Of a stretch of DNA of 54,641 nt, positions 1,021 to 49,429 are shown one piece after another. Both the position numbers and the translations under genes were made by a program. This DNA comes from Armatimonadota bacterium (GTDB taxonomy: Bacteria; Armatimonadota; Fimbriimonadia; Fimbriimonadales; GBS-DC), in the NCBI GenBank assembly GCA_037445735.1, contig JBBIJY010000020.1, positions 1 to 54,641 on the forward strand, given 5' to 3'. The notes beneath the pieces are model-generated. The model had not been told where the DNA came from and made no database searches. It worked only from the letters and a program-made list of their open reading frames with translations. Position 1 is the stretch's first letter. Every line of letters begins with the position of its first letter.

Positions 1021-1162
1021 TCCGATTGGTCTGGAATGCCCGCTTCAGGACATTCACCTGCCACTGTGCGGTTTACCGCTTGGGATTAGACGAGGCGGAC
1101 GGCTCTTTAGAACGCTGATTCGAAGGCAGACTGGATGGTTGCAGCAATTTCTCAAACTCCTC
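1021..1162. repeat. 142-bp direct repeat 'tail', copy 1 (partner-gene 3' end, intergenic DNA and 33-bp core)
   Basis: Matches 2712-2853 except for a few substitutions in the 33-bp core. Encodes the 29-aa tail EEFEKLLQPSSLPSNQRSKEPSASSNPKR. Confidence 0.97.
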
Positions 1163-2212
1163 ACCCCATTTGGTTGACTGAACCCTGTCTTCATCCCATC
1201 TGCCTGTCCAGACCTGAGAACCACAACGACGATAGTCAATCACGCGCGTATCTTTCGGAATCTCTAACTTGAGAGGTAAATCCGTAGGCTGCGCACTCAG
1301 CAGTATCGCTTTTGATTGAATCTCCTTATCACCTTTAACTATCCACTCCACTTCCGCAGGAAACCATACACTCCCTATTCGCCTGTACTTTAGCACGCGC
1401 CAGGTATAAATGGCACCATCGTCATATCGAACTTCAAGTCGCGATAAGGCATCCTGATAACGCCGATCGAGGTGGAACCGAATATAGGGAGCCAGAAATG
1501 ACGCTTTATTTCCTGACTCGCGTGGCAATTCAAAAACCCACTCCTCTGGGCTGACCGCAACGAGCCGCCAGTCTTCTGGTTTGCGCCCATATAACCGAAA
1601 CGGCGATACACCCGCATAAACAACTAACAGCTCTGGTGTAAGTGCCCCAAAAGGACTCCCTAATCCCAGCACATCAGTATCAGCCTGCGCTATGGAAACA
1701 CCATTGATCTGCCCATTCGAGGTATCTCGATAAATCTCAATCACCAGGTCATTCTGTAAATACGACTCATTTGCTGGCAGATCGACAACCTTTGCGTCAT
1801 CTAAGTCGATACCTTGCTCCTGAATATAAACATAGATTCCATGAGGAGCGCGCTTAATCGTGTAGTACTCGCAAAGATCAAAAACCATTTTGGATATACT
1901 CTCATCAACAAGAGCTTTGCTCAACACATCTTCAATTGGAATCATTTCTTCGGGTGAATCACTTTTTTGCGATGTATCATCTGCTTGCTCTGCCAGATCG
2001 AGGACATAGCGCGTTATAAAATTATTGAGTTTTCTTATATCTTCTACAGAATACCTGACCTGGCTATTTAATACCCACTTAAAAGTCATAACAGCAGCAA
2101 CACGCTCGCGAGCGTCGTAATAGGAAGGTTGTGGAGCGGTGCGTTCAAAGGACACACCACTCCACAATACCACACTAATCGATAGGTTTAGTGACAGCAA
2201 ACCGATGAGCAT
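1073..2212 (-). CDS. Exported partner protein B2 (paralog of 2764-3840), function unknown
   Basis: ORF 1073..2245; likely start is ATG 2212 after GGAGG. Hydrophobic N-terminus. Shares PSYYDxRERVAAV, GVSPFRLYG, YQDALSRLEV, TWRVLKY and WFPxEVE with B1. Confidence 0.85.
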   Translation of the reverse strand: MLIGLLSLNLSISVVLWSGVSFERTAPQPSYYDARERVAAVMTFKWVLNSQVRYSVEDIRKLNNFITRYVLDLAEQADDTSQKSDSPEEMIPIEDVLSKALVDESISKMVFDLCEYYTIKRAPHGIYVYIQEQGIDLDDAKVVDLPANESYLQNDLVIEIYRDTSNGQINGVSIAQADTDVLGLGSPFGALTPELLVVYAGVSPFRLYGRKPEDWRLVAVSPEEWVFELPRESGNKASFLAPYIRFHLDRRYQDALSRLEVRYDDGAIYTWRVLKYRRIGSVWFPAEVEWIVKGDKEIQSKAILLSAQPTDLPLKLEIPKDTRVIDYRRCGSQVWTGRWDEDRVQSTKWGEEFEKLLQPSSLPSNQRSKEPSASSNPKR

Positions 2213-2238
2213 GATAGACCTCCACGCGAGATTTGGCT

Positions 2239-2697
2239 CTAACAAGTGTATGCTGGAAGGCTCTTAAATTCTGGCCGATTTGGTCGTTGGAACTGACCAC
2301 AATCACAGCGCCCATCATTGTGAAACACGCAGGGAGCCTTCTTGTCTACTCTGACCTTGACGAAATTTAGCGTGGCTTCGCATCGCGAGTTCGGCTGCGG
2401 CTGGCAAGTGCGGAGCCTCTCCTCCACAATTTCGCCTATATAGCACTCTCCGCCGCAGTCGCCTCCAACATTAGCACAGAATCTAGCTGAATAATGTCGC
2501 TTCTGGTGATCATCTGGTGGGATCTCTGTGCATATATGGTCATTGTACACCTTCCTCTCCGGTATTGCAGGTGAAGGTATCATCAGTGCTGCTGGATCAA
2601 AGTCATTCTCTTGACCCATCACCTGGCTCGGTACAATCGTCAACAGCGCGATCACGGATGCGCTCACTGCGCTCATCCACAGCATCTGCCGTCTCAT
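2239..2697 (-). CDS. Secreted 10-Cys mini-protein A2
   Basis: ATG 2697 after GGAGGAGG. Leader MRRQMLWMSAVSASVIALLTIVPSQVMG/QEN. Ten Cys in the mature part, with Cys as the last residue. Confidence 0.88.
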   Translation of the reverse strand: MRRQMLWMSAVSASVIALLTIVPSQVMGQENDFDPAALMIPSPAIPERKVYNDHICTEIPPDDHQKRHYSARFCANVGGDCGGECYIGEIVEERLRTCQPQPNSRCEATLNFVKVRVDKKAPCVFHNDGRCDCGQFQRPNRPEFKSLPAYTC

Positions 2698-2744
2698 CGT
2701 TCCGTTCCTCCTCCGATTGGTCTGAGATGTCCGCTTCAGGACAT
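2605..2744. repeat. 140-bp direct repeat 'leader', copy 1 (core, RBS and 31 N-terminal codons)
   Basis: Identical to 4191-4330 by base-by-base reading. Confidence 0.97.
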
Positions 2745-2853
2745 TCACCTGCCACTGTGCGGTTTACCGCTTGGGATTAGACGAGGCGGACGGCTCTTTA
2801 GAACGCTGATTCGAAGGCAGACTGGATGGTTGCAGCAATTTCTCAAACTCCTC
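2712..2853. repeat. 142-bp direct repeat 'tail', copy 2
   Basis: Matches 1021-1162; overlaps the leader repeat by 33 bp (2712-2744). Confidence 0.97.
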
Positions 2854-3840
2854 GCTCCATTCGGTCTGCTTGTATCCTTTAGACGCTCCGTCCCAAACCT
2901 GCCGCCCAAGATGACGCCAGTCGCGCACATGCGTCTTTTCAGGAATCTGGAGCTCAACCGATTTCGTTCGCTCCGATCGCACCAGTACTGCGCGTGCCCA
3001 CCCCGCATAACCACGGCCGCCCTGCACTGTGAACTCCACTTCGGATGGAAACCAGATGCCTTCAATCCGCTTGTATTTCAGCACTCGCCAGGTCCAAACT
3101 TCCCCATCTGGATAGTGAACCTCCAACCGTGAGAGGGCATCCTGATAGTGGCGATTAAGGTGGAGGCGCGTTTTAGGAGCGTTCTCCTGGGATTGGTGCG
3201 AAAGTTCAAAGAGCCACTCTTCAGGGCTGACCGAAATAAGACGCCAATTCTCCGGTTTGAACCCGTACAATCGGAAGGGCGAAACACCACCGTAAACGAC
3301 CAACCATTCTGGTGGTAAACTGCCAAAAGGGCTCCCCATACCCAGCACATCATCCTCACCCTTGGCGATGTCAACGCTGGCAATCCGTCCACTTGAGTAA
3401 TCACGGTGAACCGCAATGACCGTACCACCGACGAAGTAGGTTTCTGTGGAAAGGAGAAAGTCAGTTGCTTTTGCCTGTTCCAGATGGACTCCCTGCCCTT
3501 GAGTGCGAAGACATGTTCGCTGCGGTGTGCGCTCAATGGTGTAGTACGCGGACAGTTCGAAGACTGCGTTAGCAACCTCTTCAGCAATCGGCTTTCCCGC
3601 TTCAGGAGGAGCATCAGACGATTGAGCGCGCTGGAGTTTCATCTCGTTAAGCGCTCGAACAAGCTGGGGGGGAACCTTGACCTGCTGGGTCTCCTGCCAC
3701 TCGAAGGTCAGCACGGCAGCGACACGCTCGCGAGTGTCGTAATAGGAGGGCTTTGCGGGAGGTTGCGCGATAATCAAGCGCCCACACAGCGCTCCGATAG
3801 CCACCAGCCACAGGCTTAGTTTCCAGCGTCTTTTGATCAT
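2764..3840 (-). CDS. Exported partner protein B1, function unknown
   Basis: ORF 2764..3861; likely start is ATG 3840 after GGAGAG. Signal peptide MIKRRWKLSLWLVAIGALCGRLIIA/Q. Clear paralog of B2. Confidence 0.87.
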   Translation of the reverse strand: MIKRRWKLSLWLVAIGALCGRLIIAQPPAKPSYYDTRERVAAVLTFEWQETQQVKVPPQLVRALNEMKLQRAQSSDAPPEAGKPIAEEVANAVFELSAYYTIERTPQRTCLRTQGQGVHLEQAKATDFLLSTETYFVGGTVIAVHRDYSSGRIASVDIAKGEDDVLGMGSPFGSLPPEWLVVYGGVSPFRLYGFKPENWRLISVSPEEWLFELSHQSQENAPKTRLHLNRHYQDALSRLEVHYPDGEVWTWRVLKYKRIEGIWFPSEVEFTVQGGRGYAGWARAVLVRSERTKSVELQIPEKTHVRDWRHLGRQVWDGASKGYKQTEWSEEFEKLLQPSSLPSNQRSKEPSASSNPKR

Positions 3841-3854
3841 CTCAAACTCTCCAT

Positions 3855-4283
3855 CTAACATTGTCTTATGTCAATTGTGGTGATGAAGATGGGAAAGGGT
3901 ATAGGTCTTCGCCGACCGCAGTCACAACCTGTACCCGACGGATCACGCACACAGTCAGCTTCCCATATTATCCACACCAAAGCAGTTCCCCAAGTGTATG
4001 TGCAAGATGTGCCGGGGTTAGGATAGCACTCACGATAATCCTGAAGAACAATACCACGCATGCAGTGCCCAGTACAGCCAACAGGCGTTGAACGACACAC
4101 CTCATCCTGAAACGGTGAACCCGCTGGTACTGTTTTACATATGTGGTCAGGCAAGGTTATCGGTCTTGCTGGGCTTGGGCGACCTTGAATATTCTCTTGA
4201 CCCATCACCTGGCTCGGTACAATCGTCAACAGCGCGATCACGGATGCGCTCACTGCGCTCATCCACAGCATCTGCCGTCTCAT
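3855..4283 (-). CDS. Secreted 10-Cys mini-protein A1
   Basis: ATG 4283 after GGAGGAGG. Same 31-aa leader as A2, ten Cys with near-identical spacing, and a terminal Cys. Confidence 0.88.
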   Translation of the reverse strand: MRRQMLWMSAVSASVIALLTIVPSQVMGQENIQGRPSPARPITLPDHICKTVPAGSPFQDEVCRSTPVGCTGHCMRGIVLQDYRECYPNPGTSCTYTWGTALVWIIWEADCVRDPSGTGCDCGRRRPIPFPIFITTIDIRQC

Positions 4284-4330
4284 CGTTCCGTTCCTCCTCC
4301 GATTGGTCTGAGATGTCCGCTTCAGGACAT
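4191..4330. repeat. 140-bp direct repeat 'leader', copy 2
   Basis: Identical to 2605-2744. Confidence 0.97.
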
Positions 4331-4339
4331 CCACTATTA

Positions 4340-4877
4340 TTAACGACGCAGGACGCCCTTTTGTTGCCAGCGATTCCGAAAAAACGCCCGCCCTAACGCC
4401 CCAATCCGACCCAGACAACCCTGCACTGTACCCACCGACACGCCGAGCCGCTTCGCTATCTCCCCATAACTGTAGCCCGCTTCGTACAGCTCCGCCACCT
4501 GCCGCAAATACGCTGGCAGCCCTGCAAGAAACTCGTCTAATGCGATACGCTCCACCAGCGCCTCTTCATCGTTCACCACAGCCAACCATTCACCCCCCCG
4601 TTGCATCATCTAATATCAGTATCTCATGTCGCTTACATGCTCGTTTGCGCAGATCGATCGCCAGCGAACGCAACTTGTGGCAGCACCAGCCGAGCGCCTG
4701 CCGATATTCGGCTTCATCCAGCTCGCGCTCCCACGGCAAACAGCCGAACCGCTGCCAGTACGCCAGCAAAGTGTCCTGCACCAGGTCGTCCGCCTCATCG
4801 GGGCAGGGGGTATAGCCGTGCGCTCTTTGCACAAGCCACCTGCGCCACTCTTCTTCCGTTCGCATCGGAGACGACAT
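4340..4877 (-). pseudogene. ECF-type sigma-70 factor split by a frameshift at a G7 tract (possibly phase-variable)
   Basis: Region-2 half 4877..4590 (EADDLVQDTLL; RBS GGAGGG) stops right after ACG GGG GGG TGA. The region-4 HTH half (LPAYLRQVAELYEAGYSYGEIAKRLGVSVGTVQ) continues in the next frame to 4340. G6 or G9 would give a protein of about 178 aa. Confidence 0.85.
4342..4368 (-). promoter_or_regulatory. Candidate ECF-sigma promoter for the cassette operon
   Basis: Minus strand GGCAAC-N17-CGTT(AATA), matching the AAC(-35)/CGT(-10) ECF pattern, just upstream of the first cassette core. Confidence 0.5.
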
Positions 4878-4932
4878 CGTTGCCCTCCGGTGGGGAGGAT
4901 ACGACGGATGGAATGAAATTCCTGCTGGTTTC

Positions 4933-7315: not shown

Positions 7316-10254
7316 GGGCGTGGGTGGTCGCGTGGCTGTTGAGCGGGCTGGGCGTGCTGACGCCTGCCGTCTGCCAGCAGGTGATGGTGCGCCCGGACCC
7401 CAATGCGCCCCTTGTCGCCCTCGAAATCTGGGTTCGGACAGGCAGCGCGAACGAGACCCGCGAGACTTCCGGCGCCGCGCACCTGCTGGAGCATCTTATC
7501 TTCAAAGGCACAGCCCGACACGCGCCGGGCGTGCTGGACGACACCATTGAATCGGCGGGCGGCATTCTGGAAGCCACCACCGAGCGCGACTGGACACGCT
7601 ATCGCGCGGCGGTGCTGCCCGACCGCTGGGAGCCGTGCCTGCGCATGCTGCTGCACCATCTGCTTCAGCCTGCTCTGCCCGAAGCCGAGCTGGAGCGCGA
7701 GCGCGCGATTATCTTGCAGGACGAATACGCGCTCCATCGGGCAGACCCGATTCGCACGGCACGCTACGCGCTCTATGAGAAGGCGTATGGCGAGCATCCC
7801 TACGCCCTGCCGCCGCTGGGCATTCCCGACACGCTGGCGAAGCTCACGCGCGAGCAGGTGCTGGCGTTCCATGCCCGCCACTATCGCCCCGAACGGATGG
7901 TGATTGTGGTGGTGGGGCGCGTGGAGCCAGCGCGCGTGCAGGCGGTGGTGCAGGAGGAAATCAGCAAGCCCCTCTCCCCCACTGGGGGAGAGGGTACGGG
8001 TGAGGGGGCTGTCTATCCTGTATCTGTGATCAACCCCTCACCCCAACCCTCTCCCCAGAGGGGAGAGGGAGCTAATCAGTCCCTCTCCCCCAGAAGGGGA
8101 GAGGGCGAACGAGCCTCTGAACCCCTCTCCCCCACTGGGGGAGAGGGTACGGGTGAGGGGGCTGATTTTCCTGCCGAGCTGATAGAACCCCTCACCCCAA
8201 CCCTCTCCCCAGAGGGGAGAGGGGGTTCAGATTCCCTCTCCCCCGCGTGCGGGGAAGAGGGTACGGGTGAGGGGGTAGAAGTTCAGCAGTCGGGCTGGCT
8301 GGCGCTGGGGGTCAAGGCGCCGCCCGCGAACCCGCCCGACGCGATGCTCGCAGCAGAGGTGGTGCGCCTCGCACTGGCGGAACCCTATCTCGGATTGCTC
8401 TATCAACCGCTGAATCACAGGCAGGATGCCCGTGCTACGGATACCCGCAACTGGCAGGGCGTGCCCTTTGTCTACCTGCAAAGCGAGTATATGCCCCGCC
8501 CGATTCAATCGCTGATGCTCTTCTTTTTCCAGCTGCCGCCCGATTCAGGCGATGAAGGCGTGCAGAAGCTGCGCGCGCACTGGCACGCATGCGTGCGCCA
8601 GATTGTTGAGGGCAGGGCGCGCTGGCAACTGGAGCGTGCAAAGGGATGGCTGATTGCCCGCCATCAGCAGGCGATGGCGAACCCGCTGGAGCGTGCGCGG
8701 CTGTACGCGCTTTACGCTACACTGGGGCTGCCCACCTTGCCCGATGAGTACCTTCCGCGCCTGCAATCGCTCTCTGTGGAGCAGATTGAGCAGGTGGCAC
8801 GCGGGATGCTGAACCCTTCCCTCACACTGGGGGAGAGGGAGTTCAAAAAGCCCCTCGCCCCCGCTGGGGGAGAGGGCGAACGAGTCTCTGAACCCCTCTC
8901 CCCCGCGTGCGGGGGAGAGGGTACGGGTGAGGGGGCACGGGGTGAGGAGACGGTCTATCGGCAGGTGCTGGCGAACGGCATGCGGGTGATTGCCCTGCGG
9001 CAGTCGGGCGCGAGGCAGGTGGTGATGCAGCTGCTGGTCGCTACAGGGCTGGACGCCGAGCGCGACTTCCCTGCAGGCACAGGCGAGCTGACCGCGCGCA
9101 TGCTGTTCACCGCCACCCACAACGAGACGCAGGCGACGATGGCGATGCGAATCGCACGCTCTGGCGGCGCACTGACGCTGAGCTGGGAGCCTGTGGGCGT
9201 GCGCATTCTTGCCGTCGCCGAGCCAGCCGCGCTGGAGAATGTGCTATCCCTGTTGCGGGAGGGGCTGACTCGCGCGGTGTTCGAGCCAGAAAGCTTGCGC
9301 CACGCGCTGCAGCTCGCCATTGCCGAACGCCAGCGCACCGACGGCACGCACGAGTTCTATCTCTATGACCAGCTGTTGCGCCAGCTGAACGGCGCGAGCG
9401 GTCTGTACGCGACCGCTGAGCAGCTCCAGCGCGTGCGACTGGAGCATATTCGCGCCTTCTATCGCCTTTATTACCGCCCTGAACGGTTCGTGTTTGTGAT
9501 TGCAGGCGATCTGCCCGTGGAGCGCCTGACGGAGCTGGTACAGCGGTACTTCGGCACGCTGGAGGGGACTCCCTCACCCCCTGCCCCCTCTCCCACGCTG
9601 TGGGAGAGGGGGTTCAGAAAGCCCCTCTCCCCCGCTGGGGGAGAGGGCGAACGAGTCTCTGAACCCCTCTCCCCCGCACGCGGGGGAGAGGGTACGGGTG
9701 AGAGGGCGTTTTATCCTGCTCCCCTGCACGCGGGTGCGAGAGTAGCAGTTGCTGCCTGTGGGGGCGGGGCGACGCTCTATCTGGGGTTCGGGCTGCGCGT
9801 GCAGGTGCGCACGCCTGCCGACTATGCCGTGCTGATGGTGTTGCACGCGCTGCTGTGCGAGGGCAAAGGCTCCGCGCTCTTTCAGCAGATGCGTCAGGCG
9901 CGGGGCGTCGGCTATGCGTTCGGCGGCGCGCCCCTCATGTGGCATGGCGACGGGCTGCTGCTGGGCTTCCTGCAGGTGGGCGCGAGCCGTGCCAGCCAGC
10001 AGCAAGAGCTGTTGAACGCGCTGCAGACGCTGGCGACGCTCAAAGAGATCGACCCGAACGCCTTTCGGCGGGCGGTCGCACTGGCGGAGGGGCGCTGGCG
10101 GCTTGCCCGCCTCGATATCGTTGAGCGCACGCGCCGACTCGCCCTCGCTGAAGTTAGCGGGGTCGGGTATCATGCGGAGGAGCAGCTGCCCGACTGGCTC
10201 CAGAAACTGGATCGGGCAAGCGTGCTGACCGACGCCTCGCAGGGCGCACCGTGA
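7312..10254 (+). CDS. M16 (pitrilysin) family zinc peptidase, two fused units, with in-frame palindromic repeat inserts
   Basis: GAAHLLEHLIFKG (HxxEH) and HYRPERMVIVVVG. The second unit (LANGMRV...YYRPERFVFVIAGD) lacks HxxEH. GTG 7312 overlaps the upstream stop. Confidence 0.9.
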   Translation: MRAWVVAWLLSGLGVLTPAVCQQVMVRPDPNAPLVALEIWVRTGSANETRETSGAAHLLEHLIFKGTARHAPGVLDDTIESAGGILEATTERDWTRYRAAVLPDRWEPCLRMLLHHLLQPALPEAELERERAIILQDEYALHRADPIRTARYALYEKAYGEHPYALPPLGIPDTLAKLTREQVLAFHARHYRPERMVIVVVGRVEPARVQAVVQEEISKPLSPTGGEGTGEGAVYPVSVINPSPQPSPQRGEGANQSLSPRRGEGERASEPLSPTGGEGTGEGADFPAELIEPLTPTLSPEGRGGSDSLSPACGEEGTGEGVEVQQSGWLALGVKAPPANPPDAMLAAEVVRLALAEPYLGLLYQPLNHRQDARATDTRNWQGVPFVYLQSEYMPRPIQSLMLFFFQLPPDSGDEGVQKLRAHWHACVRQIVEGRARWQLERAKGWLIARHQQAMANPLERARLYALYATLGLPTLPDEYLPRLQSLSVEQIEQVARGMLNPSLTLGEREFKKPLAPAGGEGERVSEPLSPACGGEGTGEGARGEETVYRQVLANGMRVIALRQSGARQVVMQLLVATGLDAERDFPAGTGELTARMLFTATHNETQATMAMRIARSGGALTLSWEPVGVRILAVAEPAALENVLSLLREGLTRAVFEPESLRHALQLAIAERQRTDGTHEFYLYDQLLRQLNGASGLYATAEQLQRVRLEHIRAFYRLYYRPERFVFVIAGDLPVERLTELVQRYFGTLEGTPSPPAPSPTLWERGFRKPLSPAGGEGERVSEPLSPARGGEGTGERAFYPAPLHAGARVAVAACGGGATLYLGFGLRVQVRTPADYAVLMVLHALLCEGKGSALFQQMRQARGVGYAFGGAPLMWHGDGLLLGFLQVGASRASQQQELLNALQTLATLKEIDPNAFRRAVALAEGRWRLARLDIVERTRRLALAEVSGVGYHAEEQLPDWLQKLDRASVLTDASQGAP
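7966..8276. repeat. Palindromic CCCTCTCCCC..GGGGAGAGGG repeat cluster, in frame in the M16 peptidase
   Basis: Several hairpins translated as PLSPTGGEGTGEG, PSPQPSPQRGEG and PLTPTLSPEGRG. Confidence 0.92.
8812..8936. repeat. Palindromic repeat cluster, in frame in the M16 peptidase
   Basis: Encodes KPLAPAGGEGERVSEPLSPACGGEGTGEG; near-identical to 9619-9707 and intergenic 12049-12136. Confidence 0.92.
9571..9707. repeat. Palindromic repeat cluster, in frame in the M16 peptidase
   Basis: Encodes PSPPAPSPTLWERGFRKPLSPAGGEGERVSEPLSPARGGEGTGE. Confidence 0.92.
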
Positions 10255-12048: not shown

Positions 12049-12248
12049 AGCCCCTCTCCCCCTCTGGGGGAGAGGGCGAACGAGTCTCTGAACCCCTCTC
12101 CCCCGCAAGCGGGGGAGAGGGTACGGGTGAGGGGGCTAAGCCGCGCACGCTGGTGGAAAACCCCTCACCCCAACCCTCTCCCCAGCGGGGAGAGGGAGTT
12201 CATCAGCCCCTCTCCCCCTTTGGGAGCGAGAGGGTACAGATGAGGGGA
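12049..12248. repeat. Intergenic palindromic repeat cluster (same family)
   Basis: Four CCCTCTCCCC..GGGAGAGGG hairpins with GGTACGGGTGAGGGG and CCCCTCACCCCAA arms. Confidence 0.9.
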
Positions 12249-47559: not shown

Positions 47560-49259
47560 TTAGCGCCAATACCATCTTATCATGCTATTGTACGGACCGA
47601 ACCCTGTCTCTGGCTGCTGCAAACTGGGGGTGTATTCCTTAGTGGCGCCAGCGTTCCTTGCACGCTCGTATCGCATTTCACCAGTGACAGGATTGTAGGT
47701 TGCTGTGCCGTTAAAGTTGATTTTCCAGCCGCCTGAAAACACGCAACCCTTTCTGATCGAACACATACGCATTACCTGTCCAGTAGTTCCACCAATACGC
47801 TCGCGTGTTCGTAGAGCGAACCCTTGCATTCAGTGGCCAAAGATAAGTGTTGTCCGGCACCCACCAGACCCATGTAGGACCCCAGCCGTTACTCCAGTCC
47901 CCTCCATGCTCCTGAACCACTACCTGTCCCATCTTTATCGAGAAACCTGCCATCTGCAGCACAGGAAGGAGCTCTATCGTTCCCCATATTGGGTCCACAC
48001 GCGGATACTGAGTCTGGCGTTGAGTTCTCTGGTGGGTGTACTCGTAAGGAAGCGTTTGACCTTTCACAGCCACACAAACAATCTGGGCGGGATACTGGGC
48101 ACCTGCACGGAGATAATCACAGGGCTGAATTTGCTCAGGTGTCCAGTTGGGATCCGCCAGCCCCTTATTTTCGCCCTCCTGAATATACTCGCGCAACGGC
48201 ACATACATCGACATCGGGCTACCTAACCGCACCGCCAAACCCACATGCACCCACATCGATGCGGAGCCTCGGCGACCCGCGCTGTCCGTCACCTCTACCC
48301 GAACCAGATACCGATACAACTGCTTGTAAAAGTAGTGAACTGTATCCGAGGCTGTGTCGCGCTGACGCTCCACCACCTTGGTCGGATCATCGCCAAAGGT
48401 CCATTTATAAGTAAAAGGCGGTGTGGGATGGTTTTCTCCATCGCACTCCATGTCCACCGTTGCCGTCAGCGTAATGGTCTGCCATACCCCGGCTGGCTCG
48501 GGAGCTCCCTCTAAAGAGACTGCCAGTTCATCAGGGCGCTTCACGCGCGCAAAGGCGTAGGCAGTCGCCTCTCCACACACAACCTCCGTGCCGTCCGGCA
48601 ACCGCCCATAAGCTTTGACTGTGCAACTGATCCGAAAGCGTTTGCCCGCGTGCGCCGCTGTGAATAAGAATCCACCTTCGGGCCATCGCGCCCCGCCTTC
48701 TTCAGGACCCCGTTCCGTCACCCACCTATCACCCTCTTGCCGCTCAATCTTCCAGGTATAGGTTAGACGACTGACTTCGGGTGGATTTTCACAGTCTCCT
48801 GGCGGGTCGCCCGGTGGATAACCCGGTGGCCACGGTTTACCTGGATCGCCAGGTGGATTTGGCGGCCTGGGCGGCTGCGGCGGGTAGGGATAGGGCGGGT
48901 CGTTTGGATCTTCTGGCGGCGGATCGCCCGGTTTCTGGGGTGGTGGAACAGGTGAGGGGTCGCCTCCCTCTTCACCTGGCTTATCTCCGGGTTCCGGAGC
49001 TACCATTTTCATAAATTGTGGCTCAGGGCAGTCGCAGTCGGCGTCAGCAATGCATTCCCAGGTGACCCGCTTGCCAGGACAGACGACGATGCTTTGAGGT
49101 TTAATGCGGGCAATGACATCCGCACCGGCAAAGGCAACGAAGCAGAAGGGGATTAAAGCAAGAAGGCGACCGCTATTCCATCCCCCCCCCCGCTGGGTTA
49201 GAGTGGGTTGGAAGGGTTTGTTTCATCTGGCTGCCCGATTTTATCTTTGTGCCGAACAT
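47560..49259 (-). pseudogene. Secreted Cys/Pro-rich protein with PKD/Ig-like domains, out of frame at a G10 tract and again near 47745
   Basis: The frame of ORF 47711..49012 stays open upstream through a signal h-region (RLLALIPFCFVAFAGA) with no start codon. The ATGs at 49259 and 49226 are one frame off across G10 (49182-49191). PKD-like FTYKWTFGDD...VRVEVTDSAG. A plausible C-terminus continues in frame 47560..47829. Confidence 0.75.
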
Positions 49260-49429
49260 TTCCAATCCAACCTCTCTTCAGCAATAATGTTTCTATTATA
49301 CCCCATCATGACGGCTTTGTCAGGAAGGTCCGAAGGGGCGAACAGATCCCCCGATTTTCACCAGCTGAAAAGCCCTGCTCGCTGTGCCGACAATAGGAAC
49401 CTGCTACCGTTCTCGGAGGGGATTATCGC

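What the first reader, a model, noticed from the sequence alone, without database searches (positions are those of the whole stretch)
4590..4609. G7 tract between sigma regions 2 and 4: candidate phase-variation switch, currently OFF
Seen: GCA ACG GGG GGG TGA stops the region-2 half exactly at the tract (C7 at 4593-4599 on the + strand). Both halves are otherwise free of stops, and G6 or G9 fuses them through a Gly linker. The housekeeping genes in the window are not frameshifted. Established: poly-G slippage causes phase variation. Inference: a stochastic master switch. A split two-chain sigma (ATG 4609), a recent pseudogene or a sequencing error remain possible.
Basis: partly seen in the sequence, partly recalled or inferred. 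Interest (0 to 1): 0.75.

Follow-up and report, generated by a model that had tools for sequence, protein, structure and literature searches.

The report
Poly-G break in an ECF sigma gene
A run of seven G's sits in the flexible linker of an alternative sigma factor gene and throws it out of frame, and relatives are broken at the same spot, so it is probably a slippage-driven on/off site, although simple gene decay or a sequencing error cannot be ruled out.

Summary
On the minus strand an ECF-type sigma gene (ATG 4877) stops at TGA 4592-4590, right after a G7 run (4599-4593). The sigma-4 half continues in the +1 frame (ORF 4609-4340). Reading the run as G6 gives a 178-aa protein that passes the NCBIfam ECF sigma cut-off.

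An AlphaFold model of the 95%-identical intact relative places the run in the disordered loop between two well-folded domains. Other genes in the window look intact, and about 4.9 kb of flanks aligned to close relatives show no single-base indels.

The closest relative has an interrupted run (GGT GGT). Three more distant genomic relatives have no run. Elsewhere in the family the break recurs at this Gly run:
- One lineage has a G9 run and is out of frame.
- One lineage has both a fused form and a split form.
- All 6 split clusters carry a Gly run, against 4 of 19 fused clusters.

My best reading is a real slippage hot spot that is currently OFF and probably reversible (0.45). Rivals are a plain recent pseudogene (0.27), a sequencing error (0.12), and a two-chain sigma or recoding (0.08). 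Read-level tract lengths would decide between them.

A second out-of-frame poly-G (G10) lies at the 5' end of a putative surface protein gene.

The parts
4593..4877 (-). Sigma-2 half of the ECF sigma gene (95 codons, ATG 4877); its stop TGA is at 4592-4590
   Evidence: ORF list and sequence. Pfam Sigma70_r2 E 4.6e-7. Strong Shine-Dalgarno-like site before ATG 4877 (duplex -9.7 kcal/mol).
4593..4599 (-). G7 tract (C7 on + strand) encoding the Gly-Gly of the inter-domain linker; this length is out of frame
   Evidence: The equivalent residues 93-95 of the intact relative lie in the low-confidence loop (residues 92-102) between the two folded domains.
4340..4609 (-). Sigma-4 half as a separate ORF in the +1 frame (ATG 4609 or 4606, stop 4342-4340). 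An in-frame TTG at 4585-4583 lies 7 nt after the G run.
   Evidence: Pfam Sigma70_r4_2 E 8e-9. The identical 88-aa protein P0017 is held in the protein collections. Weak SD before the ATGs (-2.7 kcal/mol).
4379..4384 (-). T6 run (A6 on + strand) after the last sigma-4 helix. It is one base longer than in L001 and L002 and changes only the disordered tail.
   Evidence: The tail after residue about 167 has pLDDT below 50 in the model.
4340..4368 (-). ECF-type promoter-like motif GGCAAC-N17-CGTTAA overlapping the 3' end of the sigma ORF, upstream of the next gene (inferred function)
   Evidence: It is the only match in the window. The same motif sits at the same place in L001, L002, L003 and in a sigma remnant in L004.
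3855..4283 (-). Cassette 1, gene 1: 142-aa Cys-rich protein with an N-terminal signal-like segment; likely target of the sigma
   Evidence: ORF. No Pfam or NCBIfam hit. Paralogue alignment with conserved Cys. Strong SD (-10.1).
2764..3861 (-). Cassette 1, gene 2: 365-aa protein of unknown family; holds the in-frame C7/G7 run at 3666-3672
   Evidence: Atlas gives only weak leads to LolA-like/TP_0789/MucB_RseB (0.88-0.89). The AF2 model is unusable (pLDDT 44).
1073..2748 (-). Cassette 2: paralogous small Cys-rich protein (ATG 2697) and a 390-aa protein; this is the cassette that follows the sigma gene directly in L001
   Evidence: Direct repeats 2605-2748 = 4191-4334 (99%) and 1021-1174 = 2712-2865 (96%). 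blastn to L001. Alignments.

Best explanation
This is a genuine ECF-type sigma factor gene (sigma-2 domain, flexible linker, sigma-4 domain). Its linker Gly-Gly is encoded by a poly-G run. In this genome the run is G7, one base longer than the in-frame G6. Translation from ATG 4877 therefore ends at the TGA just after the run, giving a 95-aa sigma-2 fragment. Full-length sigma is not made, so the gene is OFF.

The run is a replication-slippage hot spot. Loss of one G or gain of two restores a full-length sigma with a two- or three-Gly linker, which the family tolerates. Relatives are broken at the same run, and one lineage holds both fused and split forms. I therefore take the site to be a heritable and probably reversible ON/OFF site (phase variation in the broad sense).

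When ON, the sigma most likely drives the ECF-type promoter embedded in its own 3' end. That promoter would turn on the adjacent genes for secreted Cys-rich and 365/390-aa proteins.

Shown: the anatomy, the family membership, the linker position, and recurrence of breaks at the Gly run. Inferred: reversibility, switching rate, selective maintenance, and the promoter-regulon link.
For: Anatomy and identity. Profile search of the PDB gives M. tuberculosis SigL at 1e-9. The top fold matches are all ECF sigmas.

Linker position: in the model of P0002, residues 8-91 and 103-166 are folded (pLDDT 93-98), and residues 92-102, which include the Gly-Gly, are coil with pLDDT about 55.

Not a general assembly problem:
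- 32 of 56 ORFs have Pfam hits with end-to-end coverage.
- 3091 aligned columns to L005 (97.4%) have 0 gaps.
- 1824 columns to L001 have 6 gaps in 2 openings.
- In the 752-column sigma alignment the single-base gaps are at the G run and the T run.

Selection: pN/pS against L001 is about 0.33 for the N-half and 0.25 for the C-half, from 11.8 synonymous and 11.2 non-synonymous changes. The break is therefore recent or the gene is still in use.

Recurrence in the family:
- P0023 in frame 0 and the tail of P0021 in frame 2 fit one DNA over 43 codons. That was the only fit among 268 offset and frame combinations.
- All 4 possible DNAs at that linker have a G9 run.
- The start of P0161, MIHKG, read in frame +2 can give DTQG, which is exactly the linker of P0004. 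Only 12 of 160,000 tetrapeptides are compatible. Their C-halves look the same by eye in the printed sequences.
- P0004 stands for 46 sequences on 23 contigs and P0161 for 5 sequences.
- 6 of 6 split clusters have two or more Gly before the conserved Glu, against 4 of 19 fused clusters. Fisher p=0.0012, or p=0.0079 when counted as 4 lineages.

Runs are avoided in ordinary genes: 0 of 78 Gly-Gly pairs are GGG-GGG, and there is no G/C run of 7 or more in 33 genes.

A second out-of-frame poly-G (G10) lies in the window at the 5' end of a putative surface protein gene.

The downstream gene does not look like a classical anti-sigma factor. Its product has a very short N-terminal segment before the hydrophobic stretch and no family hit.
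Against: - The nearest relative (L001) has an interrupted run, GGT GGT. The pure run in this lineage may therefore be young, arising from a T-to-G change plus one extra G.
- L002, L003 and L004 have no run at this site.
- G7 is at the short end of tracts known to phase-vary (recalled).
- Irreversible lesions are also common in the family. They include a 372-bp deletion of the promoter and N-half in L005, internal deletions in P0026 and P0088, and sigma remnants in L001 and L004. This pattern fits plain decay.
- The window copy has Cys at the otherwise nearly invariant Tyr154 of the sigma-4 recognition helix.
- For P0161 and P0011-13 the G-run length is inferred, not read. Their DNA could not be fetched.
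- All split forms come from assemblies in which homopolymer errors cannot be excluded.
- No read-level or population data were available, so no switching was observed.
Confidence: 0.45

Rival explanations
1. Plain recent pseudogene. A one-off slippage mutation inactivated a dispensable, fast-turning-over paralogous sigma gene. The run is only the weakest point of the gene, with no selected or frequent reversal.
For: - Irreversible losses occur in close and more distant relatives: the L005 372-bp deletion, internal deletions in P0026 and P0088, and remnants in L001 and L004.
- Cys replaces the nearly invariant Tyr154.
- The run is not present in the 95% relative.
- G7 is short for a contingency tract (recalled).
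Against: - Both halves are still free of stops, and pN/pS is about 0.3.
- The same site is broken in at least three other lineages, and one lineage holds both fused and split forms.
- Pure G9 and probably longer runs persist in lineages only 52-64% identical, although synonymous changes could remove them and GGG-GGG is avoided in ordinary genes.
Confidence: 0.27
2. Sequencing or assembly error. The true tract is G6 and the gene is intact.
For: - Homopolymer length is the classic residual error.
- The fix is a single base.
- The window's other long G run (G10, 49182-49191) also looks one base too long.
- The 95% relative is in frame.
Against: - None of the 32 ORFs with Pfam hits appears broken. 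These include genes holding G6, C6, A6 and T6 runs.
- There are 0 gaps in 3091 columns against L005.
- The in-frame G7 at 3666-3672 is intact.
- The same 88-aa C-half is held in a protein cluster with 2 member sequences and a 941-base contig. This may be an independent sighting, but I could not check it.
Confidence: 0.12
3. The shifted state is functional. One possibility is that sigma-2 and sigma-4 are made as two chains that assemble on RNA polymerase, as in SigO-RsoA, with sigma-4 restarting at ATG 4609/4606 or at TTG 4585. The other is that RNA polymerase or ribosome slippage on the G run yields some full-length sigma.
For: - Two-subunit sigma factors exist: SigO-RsoA, Tn916 Sig7-8, T4 gp55/gp33 (passages of bioRxiv 10.64898/2026.10.01.756105).
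- All 3 split alleles whose register can be tested (window, P0021/23, P0161) share the same +1 register. That register places ATG codons from the conserved Asp-Asp codons at the head of the sigma-4 ORF.
- The G run can act as an SD-like site 7 nt before the in-frame TTG 4585. Read from the sequence; the duplex energy of -9.3 was computed on a window 3 nt off.
- The stop overlaps the restart region.
Against: - 19 related clusters and 4 genomic loci are fused across the linker, so the split is not conserved.
- The ATGs have no SD (-2.7 kcal/mol, against -9.7 and -10.1 for the neighbouring real starts).
- The stop right after the run is not conserved. In P0021 the N-frame runs on for 35 more residues, which argues against a programmed shift site.
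- The shared register may be a detection bias, because the other register offers no ATG for gene callers.
Confidence: 0.08

Closest known systems
Campylobacter jejuni flgR / flgS phase variation
   Same: Homopolymeric tracts inside the coding sequence of a transcription regulator gain or lose a base. The protein is truncated and a whole regulon (the sigma-54 flagellar genes) goes OFF. Reversion restores it (passages of PMC3930126).
   Different: Those tracts are A/T runs in a response regulator and a kinase of a host-associated bacterium, and switching was measured. Here the tract is a G run in the inter-domain linker of an ECF sigma factor of an uncultured Armatimonadota-like organism, and switching is only inferred.
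Bordetella pertussis bvgS C-run frameshift; Mycobacterium tuberculosis homopolymer-tract variants such as glpK 7C
   Same: Short G/C runs of about 6-7 bases in a regulator or metabolic gene shift frame reversibly and give population heterogeneity. The specific examples are recalled. The general point for M. tuberculosis appears in passages of PMC13104627.
   Different: The proteins and organisms differ, and reversibility was shown experimentally in those cases. Neither case involves a sigma factor split into two domain-sized ORFs.
Pseudomonas aeruginosa mucA22 (loss of one G in a G5 run)
   Same: Slippage in a short G run rewires an ECF sigma regulon (recalled).
   Different: That lesion hits the anti-sigma factor and turns the sigma ON, and it is usually not a true reversible switch. 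Here the sigma gene itself is hit and turned OFF.
Two-subunit (split) sigma factors: B. subtilis SigO-RsoA, Tn916 Sig7-Sig8, T4 gp55/gp33
   Same: Regions 2 and 4 lie on separate polypeptides encoded by adjacent genes (passages of bioRxiv 10.64898/2026.10.01.756105).
   Different: Those splits are conserved, and each gene has its own start signals. Here most relatives are fused, the break lies in a homopolymer, and the sigma-4 ORF lacks an SD before its ATGs.
ECF (group 4) sigma factors such as M. tuberculosis SigL, SigH and SigE
   Same: The two-domain sigma-2/sigma-4 architecture. Best sequence match 6dv9_F at 1e-9, fold matches, and TIGR02937 above its cut-off.
   Different: No equivalog or subfamily cut-off is reached. 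No recognisable anti-sigma factor gene follows. The gene is frameshifted as assembled.

Membership tests
ECF (group 4) sigma-70 family sigma factor | Sigma-2 domain (regions 2.1-2.4) | tested here: met
   Pfam Sigma70_r2 at 30 bits against a cut-off of 24, on the N-half. Helical domain at residues 8-91 with pLDDT 94-98 in the model of the intact relative.
ECF (group 4) sigma-70 family sigma factor | Sigma-4 domain with helix-turn-helix (region 4.2) | tested here: met
   Pfam Sigma70_r4_2 at 35.5 bits against a cut-off of 25.7, on the C-half. Domain at residues 103-166 with pLDDT 93-98.
ECF (group 4) sigma-70 family sigma factor | Only these two domains, no regions 1.1 or 3; whole-protein match to the ECF superfamily model | tested here: met
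   The read-through P0001 (178 aa) scores 51.7 bits on TIGR02937 (cut-off 42.9) over residues 15-152. Top PDB sequence and fold matches are ECF sigmas.
ECF (group 4) sigma-70 family sigma factor | Both domains on one polypeptide | tested here: not met
   As assembled, TGA 4592-4590 ends the sigma-2 half, and sigma-4 is in the +1 frame. It is one polypeptide only if the run is read as G6 or G9.
ECF (group 4) sigma-70 family sigma factor | Cognate anti-sigma factor encoded next to it (common, not obligatory) | tested here: not met
   The downstream 142-aa protein has a very short N-terminal segment before its hydrophobic stretch, and it has no Pfam or NCBIfam hit.
Phase-variable (contingency) locus by slipped-strand mispairing | Simple repeat inside the coding sequence whose length changes shift the frame | tested here: met
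   G7 at 4593-4599. G6 or G9 is in frame and G7 is not.
Phase-variable (contingency) locus by slipped-strand mispairing | Tract-length differences between otherwise closely related sequences, with ON and OFF alleles | tested here: inconclusive
   Within the family: P0004 is fused and P0161 is split, and P0021/23 has G9 out of frame. For the window's own lineage the only close relative with this region has an interrupted run. Cluster members could not be listed.
Phase-variable (contingency) locus by slipped-strand mispairing | High-frequency, reversible switching within a clonal population | not testable with these tools
   This needs raw reads or cultures. Neither was available.
Phase-variable (contingency) locus by slipped-strand mispairing | Tract conserved as a pure repeat across relatives despite free synonymous sites | tested here: inconclusive
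   Pure G9 is forced in P0021/23 and a pure run is likely in P0004/P0161. It is absent in L001-L004. GGG-GGG is avoided in ordinary genes, at 0 of 78 pairs.
Two-subunit split sigma factor (SigO-RsoA type) | Split conserved among relatives | tested here: not met
   19 related clusters and loci L001-L004 are fused across the linker.
Two-subunit split sigma factor (SigO-RsoA type) | Each half has its own translation start signals | tested here: inconclusive
   There is no SD before ATG 4609 or 4606 (-2.7 kcal/mol). The G run lies 7 nt before the in-frame TTG 4585. The -9.3 kcal/mol figure was computed on a window 3 nt off.
Two-subunit split sigma factor (SigO-RsoA type) | Both chains bind RNA polymerase and are needed for promoter use | not testable with these tools
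   No experiment was possible. Complex prediction was not used, because halves of a split gene tend to pass by likeness to solved structures.
Programmed +1 frameshift (prfB type) | Conserved shift site with an in-frame stop at the site | tested here: not met
   The stop directly after the run is seen only in the window. In P0021 the N-frame runs on for 35 residues. The nearest relative is simply in frame.

The most novel reading that the evidence does not exclude
The +1 state is not OFF but a working form. Poly-G slippage would convert a one-chain ECF sigma into a two-chain sigma, with a 95-aa sigma-2 plus a sigma-4 restarted at the ATGs created by the conserved Asp-Asp codons or at the TTG behind the SD-like G run. 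Alternatively, slippage on the G run during transcription or translation would set the dose of full-length sigma. All three split alleles whose register can be tested share that one register.
Probability: 0.08. Interest if true: 0.8.

Novelty: new member of a known kind. Interest (0 to 1): 0.5.

Why it matters
Frameshift switching at homopolymer tracts is well known in host-adapted pathogens. It is little documented in free-living, uncultured bacteria, and I found no description of it for an ECF sigma factor. The searches returned 1 and 16 papers, of which I opened passages of three, and none describes one. The library holds open-access papers and preprints only.

If the site is real, it would show an ECF sigma that lacks an anti-sigma partner being controlled by a mutable tract in its own linker. 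The whole adjacent secreted-protein cassette would then be switched stochastically. The G10 tract at the 5' end of a surface protein gene in the same window hints at a set of such loci in this organism.

There is also a practical point. The two half-ORFs should be annotated as one frameshifted sigma gene, not as two small proteins.

Tried and rejected
- **N-half search.** A search with the N-half alone (52-167 aa) found nothing. Separate N-half ORFs of P0011-13 are therefore not documented, and those three remain unproven as split alleles.
- **Cluster members.** I could not see whether the second member of the P0017 cluster is an independent sighting of the G7 state, nor how Gly counts vary within the P0004 cluster.
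- **DNA of key relatives.** The DNA of P0004, P0161, P0011-13 and P0021/23 could not be fetched. Their tract sequences are inferred from two-frame protein readings only.
- **The second 'frameshift' at the T6 run (4379-4384).** I first took it as a sign of decay and then rejected that. T5, T6 and T9 occur in different loci. The tail is disordered in the model. The apparent amino-acid conservation of the tail is explained by a conserved promoter-like DNA motif.
- **Autoregulation.** A scan for the same promoter motif found only the one site at 4340-4368 and none upstream of the sigma gene. Autoregulation is therefore not supported.
- **Programmed +1 frameshift.** Rejected, because the site is not conserved.
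- **The 365-aa cassette protein.** AlphaFold gave pLDDT 44, so no fold search was run. The Atlas gave only leads below 0.9 to LolA-like/MucB_RseB families. Its function stays unknown.
- **Complex prediction.** Not used. I do not claim that the halves bind, and a pass would not move my odds.
- **First Fisher count.** The count of fused clusters used (20) was wrong. It was recounted as 19 and rerun.
Full report
**What is there.** The minus strand reads GCA ACG GGG GGG TGA at 4605-4590. The G7 run is 4599-4593, which is C7 on the + strand. An ORF from ATG 4877 ends at that TGA and is 95 aa long. A second ORF starts at ATG 4609 (a second ATG lies at 4606), is one base out of register, and runs to the stop at 4342-4340.

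The first half hits Pfam Sigma70_r2 (4.6e-7). The second hits Sigma70_r4_2 (8e-9). Reading the run one base shorter gives a 178-aa protein, P0001 (...DDATGGEWL...). It passes the NCBIfam ECF superfamily model TIGR02937 (51.7 bits, cut-off 42.9, residues 15-152) but no subfamily model. A family profile finds M. tuberculosis SigL at 1e-9.

An AlphaFold model of the 95%-identical intact relative P0002 has two confident helical domains, at residues 8-91 and 103-166. Residues 92-102 form a low-confidence loop that contains the Gly-Gly. The tail after about residue 167 is disordered. The model's best PDB fold matches are all ECF sigma factors.

**Is it more than chance, and is the assembly sound?** A G7 is not in itself surprising. 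Three tracts give 6 overlapping matches, against 10.3 +/- 4.1 in dinucleotide shuffles.

Ordinary genes, however, avoid such runs. In 33 Pfam-supported genes (13,256 codons) there is no G/C run of 7 or more. GGG makes up 20% of Gly codons, and 0 of 78 Gly-Gly pairs are GGG-GGG.

The three G/C runs of 7 or more in the window are:
- the sigma linker, which is out of frame;
- 3666-3672 in the 365-aa gene just downstream, which is in frame;
- G10 at 49182-49191.

Of 56 ORFs sent to Pfam, 32 had hits. The housekeeping genes cover their profiles end to end.

Against close relatives the flanks carry no single-base indels:
- 3091 columns to L005 (97.4% identity) have 0 gaps.
- 1824 columns to L001 have 6 gaps in 2 openings.
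- The 752-column sigma alignment has 5 gaps in 3 openings. Two are the single-base gaps at the G run and the T run. The third is a 3-base difference in the intergenic ribosome-binding region (read).

A generally error-prone assembly is therefore unlikely. A single homopolymer error cannot be excluded.

**Relatives with DNA.** The one genome scan gave 7 loci. L001 to L004 (95, 56, 53 and 48% aa identity) all carry the gene fused.

At the tract, L001 reads ACG GGT GGT GAA. The window differs from it by a synonymous T-to-G change, which creates G6, plus one extra G. L002-L004 have longest G runs of 2-3 at this site.

L005 is 97% identical in the flank. It lacks 372 bases that correspond to window 4532-4903, which are the promoter region, the N-half and the tract. 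That junction lies 150 bases from a contig end in a MAG assembled at 3.6x coverage, so a mis-join is possible.

Between the window and L001, pN/pS is about 0.33 for the N-half and 0.25 for the C-half. The window copy has Cys where the family has a nearly invariant Tyr (residue 154, in the sigma-4 recognition helix).

**Relatives known only as proteins.** The first search found 12 proteins. Nine span both halves. Three (P0011-13) cover only the C-half and begin MH[G/R]GGEWL.

A phmmer search over 1.84 billion representatives gave 395 hits, among them several half-only proteins.

- **P0017** is the window's own C-half starting from the second ATG. Its cluster has 2 members and a 941-base contig, which I could not inspect.
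- **P0021 and P0023.** P0021 is an N-half with an odd tail, and P0023 is a C-half that starts MMCSRGGERL. One DNA can encode P0023 in frame 0 and the last 42 residues plus the stop of P0021 in frame 2. That was the only fit among 268 offset and frame combinations. All 4 possible DNAs at the linker contain a G9 run. A lineage only 52-57% identical to P0002 is therefore broken at a poly-G at the same site and in the same register.
- **P0161** (84 aa, 5 sequences) begins MIHKGGGEWL. Its C-half looks the same as that of the fused P0004 (46 sequences, 23 contigs). MIHKG read in frame +2 can give DTQG, which is P0004's linker. Only 12 of 160,000 tetrapeptides are compatible. One lineage therefore holds both a fused and a split form, differing by one base in a three-Gly run.

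**Counting clusters from the alignment.** The six split clusters are window/P0017, P0161, P0011, P0012, P0013 and P0021+P0023. All six have two or more Gly before the conserved Glu. Among the 19 fused clusters, 4 do: P0002, P0004, P0005 and P0014. Fisher's test gives p=0.0012, or p=0.0079 if P0011-13 count as one lineage.

Two rows were left out of the count: P0026, which is an internal-deletion variant, and P0001, which is counted as the window.

Three cautions apply. The clusters are related to one another. The split state of P0011-13 is inferred from their starts only. A break in the other register would offer no ATG, so gene callers might miss it.

**The second 'frameshift'.** The window has T6 at 4379-4384 where L001 and L002 have T5. 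The last 12 residues therefore differ from the family consensus.

This looks harmless. L004 also has T6, and a sigma remnant in L004 has T9. The tail is disordered in the model.

What is conserved there is DNA: GGCAAC-N17-CGTTAA and close variants lie at the same distance after the T run in the window, L001, L002, L003 and the L004 remnant. The motif occurs once in the window.

By its form it resembles ECF promoters (-35 ..AAC, -10 CGT..; the comparison is recalled, not tested). I infer that it is the sigma's own target promoter and that it drives the next gene.

**Neighbourhood.** Two paralogous two-gene cassettes lie downstream. Each encodes a small Cys-rich protein with a signal-like N-terminus and a 365- or 390-aa protein of no known family. 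L001 has only one cassette. No anti-sigma factor is recognisable. The function of the cassette proteins stays unknown.

**How it most likely works.** Shown: with G7, the ribosome that starts at the well-signalled ATG 4877 (SD duplex -9.7 kcal/mol) stops right after the run. The sigma-4 ORF has no SD before its ATGs (-2.7). Full-length sigma cannot be made from this DNA by ordinary decoding.

Inferred: replication slippage changes the run length. G6 and G9 give a working sigma with a two- or three-Gly linker, which the family tolerates (P0002, P0004). G7 gives OFF. ON cells would transcribe the cassette from the promoter at 4340-4368.

I give this reading 0.45. The main rival is a plain pseudogene in a gene family that is often lost, as shown by L005, P0026, P0088 and the remnants in L001 and L004 (0.27). 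After that come a sequencing error (0.12) and a functional two-chain or recoded form (0.08).

**Comparison with what is known.** The closest mechanistic parallel is the homopolymer switching of the C. jejuni regulators flgR and flgS (passages of PMC3930126). Others are the B. pertussis bvgS C-run, M. tuberculosis homopolymer variants and P. aeruginosa mucA22. These three examples are recalled. The general M. tuberculosis point appears in passages of PMC13104627.

Split sigma factors (SigO-RsoA, Tn916 Sig7-8, T4 gp55/33) are described in passages of bioRxiv 10.64898/2026.10.01.756105. For S. aureus, the sigma-factor passages I read (PMC7911514) mention PV-like expression of sigma-H, but none of them describes a homopolymer tract inside a sigma gene.

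I found no description of a homopolymer switch in an ECF sigma factor gene. The search returned 1 paper holding all three terms, which is a review, and one search returned 16 papers, of which I opened passages of two. PMC7826278 and PMC8103513 were seen only in the search listing. One search found no paper on sigma factors of this phylum.

**Verdict.** The feature is real in the sequence as given. It is a frameshifted ECF sigma gene broken at a linker poly-G. Family-wide recurrence makes a slippage ON/OFF site the best reading, but reversibility is unproven, and in the nearest relative the run is interrupted. I class it as a new member of a known kind, of moderate interest.

Noticed in passing
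window 49173-49265 and 47711-49191 (minus strand); G10 = C10 at 49182-49191: A short ATG-started ORF runs into a G10 tract. After the tract, a frame with no start codon runs 60-odd codons straight into the 433-aa PKD/Pro-rich ORF (ATG 49012). That hidden stretch contains a signal-peptide-like segment. G9 or G12 would fuse the two. This is therefore a second poly-G that is one base out of frame, at the 5' end of a putative surface protein gene. No homologue check was possible.
   Followed up: partly
window 4340-4368 (minus); L001 about 3395-3425, L002 about 780-810, L003 about 1730-1760, L004 about 1055-1085: A conserved ECF-type promoter-like motif, GGCAAC-N17-CGTTAA (with variants), overlaps the 3' end of each sigma ORF. 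It lies upstream of a gene for a small secreted protein and occurs once in the window.
   Followed up: partly
window 4379-4384; L001 3379, L002 764, L004 1039 and 4484: The T run after the last sigma-4 helix varies in length: T5 in L001 and L002, T6 in the window and L004, T9 in the L004 remnant. This changes the reading frame of a disordered tail only.
   Followed up: yes
window 1021-1174 / 2712-2865 and 2605-2748 / 4191-4334: Direct repeats (96% and 99%) mark a duplication of the two-gene cassette downstream of the sigma gene. L001 has a single cassette.
   Followed up: partly
L005 3990-4010 (corresponds to window 4532-4903): A relative whose flank is 97% identical lacks 372 bases covering the sigma promoter region, the N-half and the tract. 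The junction is 150 bases from the end of a contig assembled at 3.6x coverage, so a mis-join is possible.
   Followed up: partly
L001 2400-2800: A remnant of a paralogous sigma gene lies directly upstream of the intact one. Most of its sigma-2 domain is missing. Its frame breaks at a short G run between ...VQG and DVDGE..., where relatives read straight through.
   Followed up: partly
window 4415-4417 (codon for residue 154 of the read-through): Cys replaces a Tyr that is nearly invariant in the family (VQGYLGRI), in the presumed -35 recognition helix of sigma-4.
   Followed up: no
window 8078-8162, 8848-8935, 9614-9707, 12049-12136: A unit of about 85 bases, repeated at 82-91% identity, appeared when L005 211-292 and 854-943 were compared with the window. 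Three copies lie inside the 1015-aa M16 peptidase ORF.
   Followed up: no
proteins P0027, P0029, P0030, P0034 and others (not in the window): Many proteins of 270-1000 aa among the phmmer hits carry 4-10 tandem copies of a sigma-4-like helix-turn-helix. A 'CAP REPEAT' chain, 8vd6_A, was the top PDB profile hit.
   Followed up: no
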